Shown here in pieces: positions 7,000 through 55,850 of a stretch of DNA of 64,000 nt. The stretch spans positions 124,001 through 188,000 of the forward strand of contig NW_021832227.1 in assembly GCF_006345805.1 (NCBI RefSeq). Direction: 5' to 3'. This DNA is from Octopus sinensis (Eukaryota). The notes beneath the pieces are model-generated. The model searched no databases. It saw only the letters and a program-made list of their open reading frames with translations, and was not told the DNA's origin. The number at the start of each line of letters is the position of its first letter. Position 1 is the stretch's first letter. The translations under genes were made by a program, and so were the position numbers.

Positions 7000-9900
7000 A
7001 TGAACGGTTCGTCTCAATTTAAGCGATTGTCAAAAACTGTCATACCTACATGTTATGACCTTCAAATCAAAACTGATACTGAACAAGAGACATTTTCAGG
7101 GACGGTGACAATTGATTGCTCGGTTCTCTTCATTTCAGATTATTAATATACCAGATTAGTGAACAAATCACCGAAATCTTTCTCCACTGTGTAGATCTGC
7201 AAATCGACGAAGCCAAAATCGAACAATGTAAGTTTTCTAATATTAATTTTTAGCCAAACAGTCTCAATTAGCCACTGTAAGCTTCCAGCCTGAGAAAGAA
7301 GGAATTCTTCTCCAAGTTCCAGAAGAAATAGTAAAAATCATTTTAATGAAAATAGAACGTTGGAAATGCAAAGATTTCAATTCGTTATTCTGGGAAACTA
7401 AACCAGTACATGAAGGGATATTATAAAACTACTTATGTTAATGAGGGACAGACCATCAAGTGTGCGGCTACTCAATTTGAGGTTTACTGGACTTGGAGAG
7501 TTCTCATAGCCCGCTGACGCTCGGAGGGCACTTCCTTGCTTTGATGAGCCTGACTTTAAAGCGACTTTTTTGGTTAGTCTTATAGCCAAGTCTGATCAAC
7601 AAATGCTGTCCAATATGGTGGGAAATTAAATATAAGTTTTTTAAGGAAATTGACACTTGTGAGCCATTTGAAGAGGAAGGATTGGTTATAACAAGGTTTA
7701 AAATGACACCGATCATGTCTACTTATCTTTTGGCTTTTGTTGTCGGTTCATATGACTATGTCGAAGATTATGACCCGAATGGAGTCCGTGTGAGGATTTA
7801 TACCAGTCTTGGAAGAAGCGAGGAGGGCAGAATTGCTTTAAATGTTTTTTTAAAGTTTTTTATCATTAGATTGCGACAAAGGCACTTGCGTATTATGCCG
7901 AGTTCTTTGACTATCCATTTGCCCTCAAAAAATGCGATATGATTGCTCTTGCTGATTTTGCTATGGGTTTTTTAACATTTAAAAATCTAAAGGTGCTATG
8001 GAAAACTGGGGTTTGGTTACATACAGAGAGACAGCCCTTCTGGCTACTGAGTCTTCCTCCATGGGAATAAAACAGAGAGTGGCCATTGTAGTTACTCACG
8101 AATTGGCACATATGTGGTTTGGGAATCTTGTGACGATGGTTTTTTAAATTTTATGTTGAGTTTTCAGGATTGGTGGACATATTTATGGCTGAACGAGGGA
8201 TTCGCCACTTGGATATCTTATTATTGTGTAGACCATATTTTTCCAGAATACGACATTTGGACAAAATTCCAAGTTGAACAAATTGTACGTGCAATGGAGC
8301 TTGATTCTTTGGACACAAGCCATCCAATTGAAGTAAGAATTGGATACTCATTGCTTCTAAGGTGGCTGTGGGCGGCCCTTCTGAGATTGAGGAGATTTTT
8401 GATATCATATCTTATGCGAAGGGATCTTCTGTTATTGGGTATCTTTACAATTTCATAGGAGAAGAAGTATTTTTCTTTTTTTAAATGTTTATAGAATTTC
8501 CGCAATGGACTACGGGTTTATCTAAAACGTCATGCATATCGGAATACCGTGACGTCCGACTTGTGGACTGCCTTGAACGAAGTGAGTGAAATGGACGTGG
8601 CCGGAATCATGGATTTCTGGATCACCAAAAAAGGCTTTCCTTACATTTCGGTGGATTGTGAGTAATATGTTTTAAGATTTCTGCCTCTGAGGTTGACGGA
8701 ATGATGGAATTCTCAGTCAAACAAAATCAGTGTATGAAAAACGCGGGTTTTATTTTATTTTTTGAGTTGTTAGAAAACTCATTTTGTTGGCAAATACCGT
8801 ATAATCTCATCCAAAAATCAAATCCAACAAAAATTATTAATTATTTATTGAGTGAGAGACAATCAACGTTCCAGCTAAGTGGATCTATCGACCAATGGGT
8901 TAAGGTATTTGGGTTATTTGGTTTCTACTTTTTTGTAGTTAAATGTTGGCAATAGCGGGTTTTACAGAGTAAAATATGTTGGTTCTCTGAAAGATATGCT
9001 TATTGACGGAGTGCAAGATGTAAAGTCCGACGGTACAAGTGTTTTAAACATTCGCGACAAAGTCGGACTGTTGAATGATTTTCTTTCCCTCGTTTGCTTA
9101 GATTTAATTTTTGATAAATAGGCGTCTATTGGAGAGATGACGTTTGTCGACTGTTTAAGATTGTCTTGGAATCTTCGAAATGAGGTGAACTATGCGATTT
9201 GGGATTCTATTTTCAATTTATTCTCTGCTATCGACAATATTTTTGTCTCAACTGATTCATATCCCGCTTTTGTACAGTTGGTTAACCGATTTGTGAGTAT
9301 TCCGTATGAGAAAGTTGGTTGGACTGTTGTTGAAGGGGAAGGTTTTTTTTGTTTTAGAGTTTTAAAGACTGTTCTATTTCACTTCTTCGTTCACGGGTGT
9401 TTGGTGTGATGGCAAAGTATGGATTTGGTGATTTCCGTGAGAAATCTCGTTCAATGTTTGGAGGAATTACAAATGGGACGCAAATTCATGCTGATATTCA
9501 AACCTCGGTAACAAACATGATGATTATTGTAGGTTTTTGTGTCAGTGATGATGGAAGGGACTGAGATGAGTGATGTGGACAATCTAATTGGAATATACAA
9601 CAATTCAGTTCTCAGTGAAGAGAAAAACAGAATATTAGCATCCCTTGGGTATACAACTAACCAAGAAGTGGTCAAACGAGTGATTGACTTCTCAGAGACG
9701 GTTTGACGTTTATGTTGATTGTAGGACGCTGTGCGAATGCAAGACTATCCTTGGATTATTGCCAGTCTTTCTTCGTTGAGGAGTAATATTCCGTTTATGT
9801 GGAATTACTTGAAAACCAACTATTCCACAATTCTTGCTAGGCTTCCTGCATTTTCTCTAATGTCAAGAGTTATTTCGGTTAGTTTTTTGATTGAGTTATT

Positions 9901-10114
9901 TTCAGCCGGTCACTGGAAAATTTAACACTGCTGAGGAGATTGAGGATATGGAGGTTTTTTATTTGTAAAGATTTGTTAGCGTTTCTTTTCAACCGTTGAT
10001 ATTAGTTCCGTTCGCCGGTGTGTTACGCAATCAATTGAAATGGCACGAGTCAGGAAGTCCCTATATGAGGACAATTTTTCAGACATTTGTCAGTATTTGT
10101 CTGAATCTAGTTAA
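7000..10114 (+). CDS. NPEPPS: M1 family puromycin-sensitive-type aminopeptidase, about 19 micro-introns
   Basis: Splicing GT-AG introns of 24-34 nt gives a continuous frame with [56 protein letters not shown] and ISYAKG; stop TAA at 10112-10114. Confidence 0.93.
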
Positions 10115-16456: not shown

Positions 16457-17845
16457 TCAAAGCATTGATAGATAGTCCACCATTTCCGATATGTTTCTCC
16501 CGTTGTTGTTTCGATTCCATTCTCTTTGCTCAAAATTGTTCATAACTTCGATAATATTTTCAGGGAATGTAAAAGCAAGCAGTTCTTCATTTCTAGGTGT
16601 TGTGGGACTAACAATTTCACCTAAACATCACATTATAGTACCAACTTGTATTAATAACTTGGGCTTCTCCGGATTCCAAAGTTAGCTCACAATATCCACG
16701 ACGACTTTTTATAAGTTCGACAACTTTGTTGTGACTTAGATTAATAACGCTGGTCCCATTCACTTGAGTTATCACATCGTTTTGTTCAAGTTGTGCTCTA
16801 TCCGCAGGAGAATTAGGAATGACGGAGCTTATAACATGAGAGGATTCATTCATAGATAATGTAAATCCAAAACTTTCTCCTTTTTTAGAAGTCAATCTGC
16901 ATATTCGAGGATATTCCACATCTTTAATAATCCGTATATCAACAAACCTTCTACAATGTTGGTAAAATACTCAATGGATGGCATTTGGTTAGAAATCTCA
17001 ATTCCGTTATCTGTATAGTAACTCCAGGAAACAGGATCTACAAGAAGGAGGGTTATCTCTGATGGTCCATTTCTAACTCGAGCAACAACTTGTTCGTGTG
17101 TTTCATCTTGTACATTACTTCTATTTACTTCGATCACAATGTCCTCATTTCGAACACGAGCATTATAAGCAGGAGAATCTTCAATTACGGTTGAAATCAC
17201 ATGTCTTGGTGAATTTTGCGAATACGTAATACTAAATCCATATGTTTCTGACCCGTTCATTCTTATTGTGCATTCTCGTACAGTGTAACTTGGAGACACT
17301 GCTTGTTCTGGGACTTGTATTGTGTCCTCGTCTTGTAAAGGCTGTTCAGGTACTGTGTTTTCAGGTAGCGTATTTTGAATTTCTTCTTGAATTATTTCAT
17401 TTTGAGTCTCATTTTGAATTTCTTGCTGAATTGGTTCTTCTTGAGGTTCGTTTTGAACTTGTTCCTGGACTGGTTCATTGGGAATAGGTTCTTCAATTTC
17501 TTGCTCGCTTTGAACATTTGGCTCCTCCACTTCCGGTGATTGAGGAGTAGATATCAAAGGAGTTCTTAAAGACTCGTCTCGATTAACTTGGAGAGAGACA
17601 GTGAGTTTAGATTTTTTAATTTTTTTGATAAGTTTTGCGTGGGATAAATTAATTGCATCTTCTCCATTGACCATGACTATACGATCTCCGACTCTGAGAC
17701 CTGCTCTCTCTGCAGCTCCGTCTGAAATGATGTTCATTACATTGTGACTGTTGTCCTCCTGCTGTGTTTGTATGAAGAAACCCAAGCGTTTGTCAGGCTG
17801 GTTAACGTCGATCTCAATATTAACAGACTTTAGTGTGGAAATCAT
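16457..17845 (-). CDS. NHERF/PDZK1-like scaffold with three PDZ domains and an E/Q/P-rich linker
   Basis: PDZ carboxylate loops LGFFI, YGFSI and FGFTL with matching ..H..VV..I helices; spliced C-terminus EMVDYLSML resembles an ERM-binding tail. Confidence 0.85.
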
Positions 17846-17960
17846 ACAGATAAAAATATAATTAATCTATTGTGTGGTTAAAGGGTTTACAAATAAAAAC
17901 AACTTTTAGAAAAAAAAATTTAACTAAACTAAAATTAATTAAAATTGATAATTGTATGGA

Positions 17961-19236
17961 CTATAATATTAAAATGTATTTATACATTTGAAAATGTTCC
18001 TTGCAGCTGAGAAATTTGTTAAAAAGTAATGTTTTCCAATTTTCAAGTGTCATATTGGCCGAATCATAGGAATCATCATAATATATTGGCTTAGGCTAAA
18101 ATATTAAAACAAAAAATAACCGTAATATCCTCCTGAGTTGTCCACATACTTATATACGGATGAAATAGCGCTTCATTTACTGAAATACGAGTATCACTAT
18201 CGTAAGCAAGCATTCTCAGCAAAAGATCTCTCGCATAGAATGTATTGAGAGATCCATACTCGTCGGGCGGAAAAATTTGATTGGGAAATATTTCCAAAGG
18301 GTGTTTAGTGGAAGGAGAACGCAGATCCACATAAAGTCTCATCTTCTCACTCAGTTTATACAAAAAGGACTCTGGGGGTCTACCGAGGACTTGTAATATG
18401 GGACGCAGGCGGTCTTTAATATATAATCAAGATTATACCTCCTGTAGGTTTTCCCGCTTCTTTAAATAGAACCTTCCCGGTAAACATTTCTGCTAGAATG
18501 CAACCCAGGGACCAAACGTCGACTAAGAGTGAGTTTAAAAAAATACCTTTCTCGTTATATTCAATCTTAAAAGAGATTTCCGGAGCCCTGTAATTGTGAC
18601 TGACGACATATTCAGTCATATCCTCACCACAAGCCCTCGATAGCCCAAAATCAAGGAGTTTGAGAACCCCATCTCCCATTGCGCCAATATTACTCGGTTT
18701 CAAATCCTGAGAAATATATAAATATATATACTCTATGTATTATATTATACGAGTGTAGACTCTTTAGAGCTGACAAGATTTGGTAGCACAGATATGAGAT
18801 AAGTTTGTGGGTTTTGTCGCTCATGATGACATACTGAAGGACTGACTCCATCGGCTCCATCACGATGTACCTGCGGAAATAATCTAAGAGAAGAGAACAG
18901 GTCATTGAAAGATTCGTAGTCTTTTGCTTGTGTAAATATATCCTTCATGTGAATAATCTACTATTTATATCATTGAAATGTACATTTGGGTGTTTCATGG
19001 AGAACATGACCATCATTTCTCGATATGTTCTTTTTGCAGTATCCACATCACGAAATATATTGGAAATTTTCTTTATTGCTACATATTCTGCTCGTTCCGT
19101 ATCAAAACAGTAGCTATAAATATTTATGACTGCTTTTTACATACTAAACTCCTCCCTGTGCTCCATGTTCTATCAATTTGAGTTTATAATATCTTTGGTT
19201 TTCTCCAATATAATGAAAATCACGCCCGTACTCCAT
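17961..19236 (-). CDS. JNK: JNK-family MAP kinase (divergent)
   Basis: GAQG glycine loop, VAIKK, AKRTYRE, ISYLCYQ, HRDLKPSNI, DFGLSR, YRAPE and ARDLLLRML..RISVNEALFHPYI after removing micro-introns. Confidence 0.85.
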
Positions 19237-21459: not shown

Positions 21460-22104
21460 ATGATGCAAAGTTGGTTTGTTGATGATAATTTAGAATCCTT
21501 GTTTAACCTAAAATTCATTGCCAAATCGTTAGAACGTAATGCTGTCAAATGCGAAAAAGAAGAAAGAAATGAACGAGCTAAGCTAAAAAAGTCTTTGATG
21601 AAAGGAGAACTCGAATTTGCCAAAATATACGGAGAAAATTGTATACGGCAAAAACAACAGGCTCTCAGCTGTCGACGAATGAGTGCTCGTGTCGATTCTG
21701 TTGCAGCCCGAGTAAATTCCGCGATAATGACAGGCCAATTAACACGGAATGTTAGCAAAGTTACACAGTCAATGCAGTCTGCATTATCTAAAATGGACTT
21801 GGAAAAAGTAATTTGCTCAAATAACTCAGATCACTCTTCTAATGGATAGTTTTGAGAGGCAATTTGACAATTTGGATGTACAGACGTCGGTTATGGACAC
21901 TTCTATAGCCGGATCCTCGGTCTCCAACACACCTTTGGCGGAGGTGGATGCATTGATGAAGCAATTGGCTGAAGAGAATGGGTTTGGGACGTTTTTTATT
22001 TTAGCATTGACCTTGATTTTATGCTGGATTCTTCCCAAACGTCGACTGACACTGATAAGACACAGACAGACTTGGCCAACCGTTTGGCAGAGCTGAGAAA
22101 ATAA
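21460..22104 (+). CDS. CHMP1: ESCRT-III subunit CHMP1/Did2
   Basis: LFNLKFIAKSLERNAVKCEKEE..IYGENCIRQK..ARVDSVAARV..MDSFERQF..DLANRLAELRK*; two micro-introns. Confidence 0.93.
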
Positions 22105-50477: not shown

Positions 50478-51842
50478 TTAGTAATTATTACAGAAAAAAG
50501 TTCGTGTTTTTATACAACGGCTGCTTCTACAGTTAGGACATCTCATTTTCAATTGATTCGATACTTCTCCTCGTTGGATAATGTGTTCTCCAGTTAGCCT
50601 GGCTAATCCCTAAAACTAATATAAGTGAAAAAACATAAAGAAAGTCAGGATCAAGATTAGGCACTGGAAGCCTGGCGAATTTTTTTATCCCGATCTTAAA
50701 ATTCATTAAAATTATCCAAAACAACTTTTGTGGCTAAACTTCTATAAAGAATGTCCAATTCATATAAAGTCTCGCTGCAATCGGCAGCAAACACAATTGG
50801 AGCTAAAATGATATTCTGATAGCCATTCTTAGCCAAACCAGTAAGCATTTTATTAACACTGGGTACCATCCACTGTATAGGACCAACCTAAATGTTAAAA
50901 CATAATCAAAAACTACCCGTGATTGCCAAGAAACACAATACGGCAAGTCTAAATTTAGTTTTTTCATGACTTGATAACTCGTTGCAAAGACTTCCCTTAC
51001 ATAGGGATCACCTTTGTCAAGAACCTTATCATTGGTAAAAAATAATTCACTTTAAGAGGTATAGAATGAGCAGTGAATAAAATAACGGGTGGTTTATCAT
51101 CATAACTTTCAAAATCCCTTATCAAATCTCTCAATTTGTCGACCAAAAACTGCAAAATAACAAAATGTTTAAAAGTACATTTATAAAAAAATCTTGAGTA
51201 GGCCATCTATCAATTATACTCCACATTATTAATGATTTTTTCTTTAAAGCAATTTGAGCCAAATAATTCAAGGAACTCCCCGTAGTGATACAGCTGTACT
51301 GTGGAAATAGGGAAAGGGCCACTGCTCGCTTAATCCCATCTTTTTCCATAGCCTCATACGCTTCATCAATCATCGGTGGTGAGTACCTAAATCCAACATA
51401 GACTTTAAATGGCCCTAAGTAAATTAATAAAAACTTAGACCGAGTGAAGGATAATTTGTATTTAAGTATTTTGTAATCATTTTTGCTTGTTCTTCGCTTA
51501 TTTTTCTTATAGGACTGCCTCCGCCAATTGCCTTATAGTATTCAACCACTGTGGATTTTCTTCTGATTGCAAGTAATCTTCCAGTGACGCTATTAGACGG
51601 TATAAATATTAAAGACTGCCTGCTGAATGGAAGTTGAACAACATCTGGATCAGTAAATATATTGGTCAGATAGTCGCTAATTCCTTCTAACGTCTCACAT
51701 CCTCCCATGTTAAGCAACATTATGCCGGTTTTATAACTCGAACTTGAAATATATTTTATTGGTATTACTTTTGATATTTCATTTTTTCATTGTGTTTGTG
51801 TTTAGAAAAAAACAAATTAAAAGCTCTTCTCAGAGAAACCAT
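50478..51842 (-). CDS. FECH: Ferrochelatase (animal [2Fe-2S] type) with a probable mitochondrial presequence
   Basis: LLNMGG, IGGGSPI, GFRY, PQYSCITTGSS, IDRWPT, TAHSIP, GDPY, WQSRVGP, ETLYELDI and C-terminal CPNCRSSRC. Confidence 0.95.
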
Positions 51843-54784: not shown

Positions 54785-55621
54785 ATGGACTACATGCATG
54801 CTTCTAAAGATGTTGACCCTTCAATGGCAGCACGTGCTGTATGGGTTATGAAGGTCCCCAAATCTCTCTCTCGACTGTGGCGGGAAACCAAAACATCTGA
54901 TGATATTGTCGGAAAAATGACAATAAATAAAACAATGTAACTATATACGATGATCCCAAGGAATCAAGAAAAAACATCAAAAGTTGGATTTATTTCAAGT
55001 CTTCCACTCAAAAGACAAGCCACTCCTCTAAATAAACAAAAAAATTATAAAATTAATATAATCAAAGTCGAGGACCAACAAACCCAACTCATAATCTCCC
55101 AACAACCAAAGCCCGCCAATGAAACAGCTATTTTGGGGGACGAAATCTTATCGATTGAAGGACACGTGATTCAACGTGGTGATTTTATGGCGGACATTGC
55201 CACAGCTTCCTTAGATTTGTCAAAGTTAGTCCCAACTCGATATTTAGGTACACTACACATTTTAAGCCACAAAAACAGAGCATTCAACTGGAGGGAATTG
55301 TGCGAGATAAAAAAATTATTCCACGGGAAGATGTAAGTTTTGGGGTTAATTTTTGAATAGAAAAATTCTCAGAATATGAGAGGAAGAAAGGACATGAAAG
55401 TGCGGCAGGAAAAGAGTGTGGTCTTGGAAAAGGTCTTTGCTGCCTTTGAAAGTCACCAATACTACACGACCTATTACTTGTCTAATGTGACGGACCAGCC
55501 AATGGGGTATTTGAAAGAGATTTTACAGGAATGTTGTATTTTTAATACTCGCCCTCCACATAAATCAATGTGGGAGTTGAAGCCTGAGTTTAGACATTAT
55601 GGTAGTAAAACTGATGAGTAA
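54785..55621 (+). CDS. GTF2F2: TFIIF beta subunit (RAP30)
   Basis: VWVMKVPKSLSRLW; winged-helix AFESHQYY..TDQPMGYLKEIL..PHKSMWELKPEFRHY. Confidence 0.93.
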
Positions 55622-55850
55622 TTTTTAAATATTTTGTTGTTTTTTTATAGTTGGTAGTATATTTTATAAACTATTCGGATGTTAGAATTTGTTTTTAGAG
55701 AGCTCGGGGTATTGCCCAAATTGTGTCTATATTTTGTAGGATGTAAAAAATGATAGTTTAATTAGTATTTTGTAGTTGTGATTTCTGAATAATTTTTATT
55801 AAAAATGCATTGTTTGGTAAAATTGAAGTGAATATTTTGTTAAAACCAAT

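What the first reader, a model, noticed from the sequence alone, without database searches (positions are those of the whole stretch)
7000..10114. Micro-introns of 23-34 nt that appear to be defined by length rather than donor consensus
Seen: the aminopeptidase needs about 19 introns of 24-34 nt, and the other genes show the same sizes. Donors conserve little beyond GT (GTTCTC, GTTTAC, GTGGGA, GTTTTT, GTCAAA, GTCTAA), AAG acceptors are common, and no branch-point motif is obvious. At 8651-8676 only the weak GTGGAT donor (26 nt) keeps the frame, while a textbook GTGAGT 7 nt downstream would frameshift. Internal AGs 16-19 nt from the donor are skipped in introns 1 and 4. Known: animal introns usually rely on U1/U6 pairing to GTRAGT and are much longer, although introns of this size are reported in dicyemids. 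Inference: a remodelled spliceosome that measures GT-AG distance.
Basis: partly seen in the sequence, partly recalled or inferred. Interest (0 to 1): 0.72.

Follow-up and report, generated by a model that had tools for sequence, protein, structure and literature searches.

The report
Micro-introns in hidden octopus-parasite gene
This aminopeptidase gene is cut by 19 introns of only 24-34 bases, a trait already published for dicyemid parasites, to which this DNA likely belongs; an ordinary spliceosome likely finds them by combining a minimum length with U-rich content and weak end signals, not by length alone.

Summary
Observation confirmed. 7000-10114 is a puromycin-sensitive aminopeptidase: 19 GT-AG introns of 24-34 nt give an unbroken 867-aa protein. 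Paralogues share 18 of the 19 positions, and spliced contigs support 3; the other 16 had no cover. The contig sits in a 2.7-Gb host assembly but likely belongs to a dicyemid parasite (18S primer, RPS13 evidence). Short introns with reduced splice motifs are published for dicyemids, and this scan noted the same on other DNA (e1-8792678). The 'length rather than consensus' reading is half right. Length matters: AGs under about 22 nt from the donor are ignored. But this gene holds 130 GT..AG pairs of 24-34 nt for 19 introns. Without reading frame, length alone recovers 10 introns among 43 calls, while length plus composition plus weak motifs recovers 17 among 19. A weak A peak at +17 to +19 suggests two spacings (donor to branch, branch to AG) rather than one GT-AG ruler. 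U2, U5, U6, U1-70K and U1-C look conventional; the parasite's U1 snRNA was not found.

The parts
7000..10114 (+). Puromycin-sensitive (M1) aminopeptidase gene, 20 exons, 867 aa
7123..7154 (+). Intron 1, 32 nt; internal AG at +16 skipped
   Evidence: homology (25), paralogue (29), contig joint in X1 (8)
7228..7253 (+). Intron 2, 26 nt, GTAAGT donor
   Evidence: contig loose end at 7227 continues as 7254 onward (8)
7331..7355 (+). Intron 3, 25 nt
7482..7509 (+). Intron 4, 28 nt; internal AGs at +17 and +19; GC-AG in the paralogue
7618..7645 (+). Intron 5, 28 nt, AAG acceptor
7844..7869 (+). Intron 6, 26 nt
7967..7992 (+). Intron 7, 26 nt, AAG acceptor
8139..8167 (+). Intron 8, 29 nt; GAG at +22 skipped
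   Evidence: same position in the L013 paralogue (88)
8333..8361 (+). Intron 9, 29 nt, GTAAGA donor
   Evidence: homology only; not found in the paralogues compared
8467..8494 (+). Intron 10, 28 nt
8651..8676 (+). Intron 11, 26 nt, GTGGAT donor; internal GTGAGT at 8658 would give 19 nt
8747..8773 (+). Intron 12, 27 nt, in frame and stop-free
   Evidence: same site and phase in the paralogue (29)
8905..8938 (+). Intron 13, 34 nt, no internal AG
9092..9121 (+). Intron 14, 30 nt
9342..9367 (+). Intron 15, 26 nt; internal AGs at +16 and +18
9508..9532 (+). Intron 16, 25 nt
   Evidence: same position in the L013 paralogue (88)
9701..9724 (+). Intron 17, 24 nt
   Evidence: 24 letters left out in contigs of X1 and X2 (8)
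9878..9905 (+). Intron 18, 28 nt; internal GT at +5 would give 24 nt
9954..9979 (+). Intron 19, 26 nt

Best explanation
These are genuine 24-34-nt GT-AG introns of a likely dicyemid parasite co-assembled with its host, and they are likely removed by a conventional major (U2-type) spliceosome that recognises each intron as one small unit. Inferred steps: a U/A-rich patch in less AT-rich coding sequence marks the intron. A GT, helped by exon-end AG and a weak +5G, is taken as donor, the upstream one being preferred when two fit. U2 is placed on an A about 17-19 nt after the donor. The first non-GAG AG at least about 6 nt past that A is the acceptor. The two minimum spacings add up to the sharp lower edge at 22-23 nt, and the right tail comes from the wait for the next AG.
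For: Real introns. A model with a flat 12-100 length prior and no positional terms still peaks at 23-29 nt. Internal frame-shifting AGs ending 22 or more nt from the donor: 7 of 815 positions, against 91 of 3836 nearer ones (P=0.004); at equal distance from the 3' end 3 of 673 against 10 of 407 (P=0.007). 'First non-GAG AG from +22' gives the acceptor in 348 of 360 predicted and 50 of 53 independently placed introns. The A peak is at +17 (= -7) in 22-24-nt introns and at +18 (= -10 to -12) in 27-29-nt introns (53 of 110 against 0.32 background, P=3.5e-4). An A at +17 to +19 occurs in 41 of 53 independent introns against 33.3 in shuffles (P=0.009). Frame-blind parse of this gene, trained on 218 introns of other contigs: length 10 right of 43 calls, composition 9 of 18, motifs 9 of 39, length plus composition 16 of 18, all three 17 of 19. 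Competing frame-shifting donors that would give 23-29 nt lie downstream in 25 introns and upstream in 1. U2 on the same contig with an unchanged branch-pairing region; U6, U5, U1-70K and U1-C on contigs of the same composition class. PMC13644364 reports the same drift of weak As away from the AG in D. japonicum.
Against: Branch points are inferred from base frequency only, and the signal is weak: about 50% A against 30%, absent at +18 in 30-34-nt introns (11 of 43), with no TNA context above a control. A single-anchor fit slightly favoured the 3' end over the 5' end (log-likelihood 23.0 against 19.9), so the donor anchor is not exclusive. 'AG nearest to 26 nt' predicts 347 of 360 acceptors, as well as the scanning rule does. 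The same-offset control for missing upstream GTs is modest: 0 of 257 where I expect about 4 by hand count. The 360 introns are ab initio, used composition in their prediction, and were kept from 488 with posterior 0.7 or more; thresholds were tuned on the test gene. U1 snRNA was not found. The link of contig C8698 to the dicyemid markers rests on composition and intron style, not on physical linkage.
Confidence: 0.66

Rival explanations
1. A remodelled spliceosome measures the GT-AG distance directly (optimum about 26 nt), and sequence beyond GT and AG is irrelevant.
For: Narrow length peak. Length separates true from false pairs over 12-100 nt with AUC 0.95. At intron 11, length is the term that rejects GTGAGT (+3.5 against -3.8 bits; motif 1.1 against 0.3). 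'Nearest to 26' fits 347 of 360 acceptors.
Against: 2,718 GT..AG pairs of 23-29 nt lie inside predicted exons against 469 predicted introns of that size; 130 pairs of 24-34 nt against 19 introns in this gene. Within 22-34 nt, length gives AUC 0.66, and composition plus motifs 0.97. A 57-nt intron without an internal AG interrupts U1-C. D. japonicum introns have a 90th percentile of 32 nt and a maximum of 2,855 nt (PMC13644364 supplement). The snRNA cores found are unchanged.
Confidence: 0.12
2. Same conventional machine, but anchored at the 3' end: U2AF-like reading of TT at -6/-5 and the AG fixes the branch A at -7 to -10, and the donor is then the GT that lies far enough upstream.
For: The 3'-anchored term is the stronger in the two-anchor regression (2dLL 90 against 49); A falls to 16-18% at -6/-5; the single-anchor fit favours the 3' end.
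Against: A at -7 drops from 57% in 22-24-nt introns to 26% in 27-29-nt introns while +18 stays high; the 5' term still adds after the 3' term (nominal P=4e-6, positions not independent).
Confidence: 0.17
3. Splice-site choice is sloppy and the apparent precision is kept by nonsense-mediated decay of mis-spliced and unspliced RNA.
For: Motif information is very low (at most 0.29 bits per position above local background). Only 3 of this gene's 19 introns are multiples of 3.
Against: No shortage of 3n introns in the larger sets (115 of 375; 19 of 53). All five junctions seen in contigs match the predicted sites and none shows retention, though contigs drop rare forms.
Confidence: 0.05

Closest known systems
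Dicyemid micro-introns (D. japonicum, D. acuticephalum, Dicyema sp.; PMC13644364, PMC6543705, PMC2222250, PMC2483917)
   Same: Size (published medians or means 24-27 nt; here mode 25-26), many introns per gene, donor and acceptor motifs reduced to little more than GT and AG, no branch motif, weak As that lie further from the AG in longer introns.
   Different: Likely another species than D. japonicum (RPS13 about 77% identical by hand count; its three introns 27/26/25 nt against 24/24/24). Position +3 is A or T about equally (39/42%) rather than 'GTa'. The papers, as far as I read them, do not split the signal into length, composition and motifs or report dicyemid snRNAs.
Myxobolid myxozoan introns (PMC13644364)
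   Same: Median 22-27 nt, reduced motifs, conserved U2 branch-pairing region.
   Different: Cnidarian lineage, independent origin; U2AF was shown there and not tested here.
Paramecium introns (PMC12862383, PMC2483917)
   Same: Median 24-25 nt, low GC against exons; there, low GC and a length of 23-26 nt go with efficient splicing.
   Different: Ciliate; splicing efficiency was measured there and could not be measured here.
Stentor 15-16-nt introns (PMC9505925)
   Same: All snRNA cores conserved despite tiny introns; positional branch A without a motif.
   Different: Stentor has near-fixed length and a near-invariant A; here lengths span 22-34 and more, and the A peak is weak and broad.

Membership tests
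Major (U2-type) spliceosomal introns | GT(GC)-AG ends and removal from transcripts | tested here: met
   19 of 19 GT-AG; 3 of 19 supported by spliced contigs, 16 uncovered; 2 more in RBM19; run type is not on record
Major (U2-type) spliceosomal introns | U2 snRNA with the GUAGUA branch-pairing region | tested here: met
   C8698:401983-402172, 153.9 bits; region identical to the host copy
Major (U2-type) spliceosomal introns | U6 ACAGAGA box and U5 loop 1 | tested here: met
   Unchanged in copies on contigs of the same composition class; assignment by composition
Major (U2-type) spliceosomal introns | U1 snRNA with a 5' end complementary to the donor | tested here: inconclusive
   Only host copies and a host-like pseudogene found; one search listed 100 of 177 matches, all on large contigs
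Major (U2-type) spliceosomal introns | U1 snRNP proteins U1-70K and U1-C | tested here: met
   Genes with micro-introns on C8695 and C12467
Major (U2-type) spliceosomal introns | Lariat at a branch adenosine | not testable with these tools
   Only a frequency peak at +17 to +19
Dicyemid micro-introns | Narrow length peak in the mid-20s | tested here: met
Dicyemid micro-introns | Reduced 5' and 3' motifs with weak As drifting from the AG as length grows | tested here: met
   against PMC13644364
Dicyemid micro-introns | Source organism is a dicyemid | tested here: met
   A 1,667-nt 18S with a 20 of 22 match to a primer used for dicyemids and none in a host 18S; RPS13 like D. japonicum's with the same three intron sites. 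Both lie on other contigs; the tie to C8698 is inferred from composition and intron style. No tree was built.
Strict-ruler introns of the Stentor type | Near-invariant length and branch position | tested here: not met
   23-57 nt in the independent set; A at the peak in about half of introns
M1 aminopeptidase, puromycin-sensitive type | Peptidase_M1_N, Peptidase_M1 and ERAP1_C domains; GAMEN and HEXXH motifs | tested here: met
   best solved relative is puromycin-sensitive aminopeptidase, E 1.9e-23

The most novel reading that the evidence does not exclude
An animal spliceosome that closes a lariat loop of only about 17 nt and picks donors largely without U1 RNA pairing: its U1 snRNA has diverged beyond recognition while U1-70K and U1-C remain, and the donor is set by exon-end contacts plus the physical span from donor to branch, a true molecular ruler inside an otherwise conventional machine.
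Probability: 0.15. Interest if true: 0.65.

Novelty: new member of a known kind. Interest (0 to 1): 0.3.

Why it matters
How 20-30-nt introns are recognised is stated as open in PMC13644364. The rules found here (minimum about 22 nt, likely branch A near +18, first non-GAG AG, U-rich body) are concrete, testable predictions for the smallest substrate an animal spliceosome can handle. In practice it also shows that a parasite's intron-rich genes lie inside a host assembly, where database proteins from this contig carry the host's name and are truncated (two partial entries of 224 and 246 aa). The phenomenon itself is published, which caps the interest.

Tried and rejected
No RNA holder was listed as such; runs X1-X4 are of unrecorded type and were used only because their contigs skip introns. 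The PDI gene chosen to test 21-, 22- and 31-nt introns had no usable cover. A divergent exon found no relatives (none of 5 candidates; 2 weak hits), so no named dicyemid orthologue of this gene was obtained. The alpha-tubulin search gave animal hits at up to 97% identity but no Dicyema entry among the 120 listed. The first self-trained gene model was swamped by long ORFs and was discarded. The U1 candidate on C9998 is a truncated host-like copy. U1-like 5' motifs near U5 genes lie in a retroelement, and a dispersed repeat with such a motif has no Rfam U1 match. No Rfam family at the curated cut-off in the window. A TNA branch context was not above control. Donor strength against intron GC gave no clear trend beyond background G. 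Assembly artefact or pseudogene: rejected by the intact ORF, the paralogue positions and the spliced contigs. Predicted introns under 21 nt may in part be repairs of 1-nt frameshifts (example in alpha-tubulin) and were left out. Lim and Burge 2001 is recalled only; two look-ups failed. Ogino et al. 2010 was not read. The logos in supplement S9 of PMC13644364 are pictures I could not see and may already show the branch position.

Full report
1. The gene and its introns. An exon at 8171-8332 matches puromycin-sensitive aminopeptidase (E 1.9e-23), and five exons tested hit Peptidase_M1_N, Peptidase_M1 or ERAP1_C. A spliced aligner with a profile of 21 homologues and a flat length prior of 12-150 nt placed 18 GT-AG introns of 24-34 nt. 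With a 19th (8747-8773) the ORF runs from ATG 7000 to the stop at 10114, 867 aa. A paralogue on the same contig (424 of 843 aligned residues identical) has introns at 16 of the 19 positions and phases, two of them mis-sized by my aligner. A further paralogue (L013) adds introns 8 and 16. Only intron 9 rests on homology alone.

2. Transcript evidence. Four runs of unrecorded type hold 20-36% of the words. Their contigs skip 7123-7154 (one contig, short side 25 letters), lack 24 letters at 9700 (two runs), and continue from 7227 into 7254 (loose end). The other 16 introns were not covered. On a second stretch, contigs lacked 24 and 26 letters exactly at two predicted RBM19 introns. No contig showed retention or another site at these five junctions, but contigs drop rare forms.

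3. Whose DNA. The window is G000:C8698:124001-188000 in a 2.72-Gb assembly with chromosome-size contigs. The two best protein hits, from a contig of the same length as C8698, carry an octopus name. The assembly holds, besides host 18S copies of about 2,600 nt, one of 1,667 nt (12 of 4,495 candidates scored). It matches a primer used for dicyemids at 20 of 22 bases, and the host copy tested does not match. An RPS13 gene on two unplaced contigs is about 77% identical, by my hand count, to the D. japonicum sequence printed in a supplement and has the same three intron sites. These contigs and C8698 share a tetranucleotide signature that host loci lack. So the source is likely a dicyemid other than D. 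japonicum. The tie is by composition and intron style, not linkage.

4. A larger intron set. I fetched 1.26 Mb of four such contigs and ran a self-trained gene model that knows only GT, AG, codon statistics, a position-free intron composition and a flat length of 12-100 nt. It called 843 introns in 93 genes with a peak at 23-29. Of these, 488 had posterior 0.7 or more; I used the 375 of 20-36 nt or the 360 of 22-34 nt and dropped the rest as less reliable. A second set of 53 was placed mostly by homology or contigs (19 here, 14 and 8 in paralogues, 3 tubulin, 3 RPS13, 4 U1-C of which two are prediction only, 2 RBM19).

5. Signals. GTRAGT occurs in 9 of 375 donors. Exon -2A is 54%, -1G 47%, +3 A or T 81%, +5G 23% (P=1e-11 against other intron positions). 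Acceptors are TAG 215, CAG 77, AAG 75, GAG 8. Donors with an exon-end AG less often have +3A (17 of 84 against 127 of 276, P=2e-5), an effect absent at +4 to +16, as expected if weak contacts compensate each other. A falls to 16-18% at -6/-5 and rises near +17 to +19. The peak is -7 in 22-24-nt introns and -10 to -12 in 27-29-nt introns; both a 5' and a 3' term are needed in regression, the 3' being stronger. The peak is not seen at +18 in 30-34-nt introns, and single-anchor fits slightly favour the 3' end.

6. Is length the definer? It is necessary: frame-shifting AGs are tolerated up to about +21 and depleted beyond (7 of 815 against 91 of 3836). At intron 11, length is what rejects the textbook donor. 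It is not sufficient: exons hold 2,718 GT..AG pairs of 23-29 nt against 469 introns. True introns are 78% AT (81% in this gene, placed by homology) and the decoys 57%. Parsing this gene without reading frame, with models trained on other contigs, gave F1 0.32 for length, 0.31 for motifs, 0.49 for composition, 0.74 for motifs plus composition, 0.86 for length plus composition and 0.89 for all three (thresholds tuned on the test gene, so optimistic). There is no hard ceiling: U1-C has a 57-nt intron with no internal AG. My data do not separate 'first AG from +22' (348 of 360) from 'AG nearest 26' (347 of 360).

7. The machine. U2 lies on C8698 itself with an unchanged branch-pairing region. A shorter U6 with an intact ACAGAGA box, U5 copies with an intact loop 1, U1-70K and U1-C lie on contigs of the same class. 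The parasite's U1 snRNA was not found by one family search and three pattern searches, one of them with a cut list. This is inconclusive in a host-dominated assembly.

8. What is known. PMC13644364 (parts 1-2 of 3, covering all main text, plus supplement passages) reports median 24 nt, 'GTa' and 'AG' motifs, and weak As moving away from the AG in D. japonicum, and says the mechanism is open. PMC6543705 (passages) gives median 27 nt; PMC2222250 (passages) 26.2 +/- 1.9; PMC6736024 (passages) 6.2 introns per gene; PMC2483917 (section 15 and passages) notes the weakest known donors and no branch signature in dicyemids. PMC12862383 and PMC9505925 (passages) give the ciliate parallels. PMC12953835, PMC7710466, PMC6778094 and PMC10125929 were seen as passages only. 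That intron length and composition add to weak motifs in short introns is recalled (Lim and Burge 2001), not read. Searches for a fuller dicyemid mechanism listed nothing beyond these.

9. Verdict. A real, well-supported case of a published trait in what is likely a further dicyemid species. Interest 0.3.

Noticed in passing
G000:C8698:187377-190382 and 204195-207200 (starts at window 63377): Near-identical duplicate of a second aminopeptidase paralogue (about 50% identical to this gene) with one GC-AG intron and three introns fewer. At the site of intron 15 both copies read GG instead of GT, so the intron is either a 28-nt GG-AG or a 13-nt GT-AG.
   Followed up: partly
L030:9466-9489 (C8698:325466-325489): A contig-supported 24-nt RBM19 intron starts with GTATCCTTT, the recalled minor-spliceosome donor consensus; chance is plausible among about 850 introns.
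   Followed up: no
L065:3964-4900 and L069:4913-5900: In 2 of the 10 U5 loci compared, the U5 copy directly abuts one end of a same-strand element that looks reverse-transcriptase-coding; a related piece lies near the U2 gene on C8698. Possibly an snRNA-associated retroelement.
   Followed up: partly
L049:2200-3642 (C8698:122.2-123.6 kb): Alpha-tubulin with GC-richer introns of 33, 30 and 27 nt, one with a textbook GTGAGT donor, and a 1-nt frameshift in a C run that may be an assembly error.
   Followed up: partly
L183:1495-2400 (C8695): The U1-70K gene is GC-rich and its apparent introns of 21-29 nt are G-rich, several with GTGAGT donors, unlike the U-rich majority (read by eye).
   Followed up: no
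C8698:377359-392875: Predicted 4,562-aa gene, recalled as resembling cytoplasmic dynein heavy chain, with about 66 introns, most of 23-32 nt.
   Followed up: no
360-intron set: G at +8 is enriched (60 of 360, P=6e-4), often as GT at +8/+9; unexplained by recalled U1 or U6 pairing.
   Followed up: no
L046, L024, L043, L093, L117, L139, L157, L064: A dispersed repeat carrying an 11-nt match to the U1 5' end followed by an Sm-site-like run; no Rfam U1 match in the copy scanned.
   Followed up: partly
window 16457-19236 (-), 21460-22104 (+), 50696-51720 (-), 54785-55788 (+): Other predicted genes in the window (a kinase-like gene among them) also carry 22-31-nt introns.
   Followed up: partly
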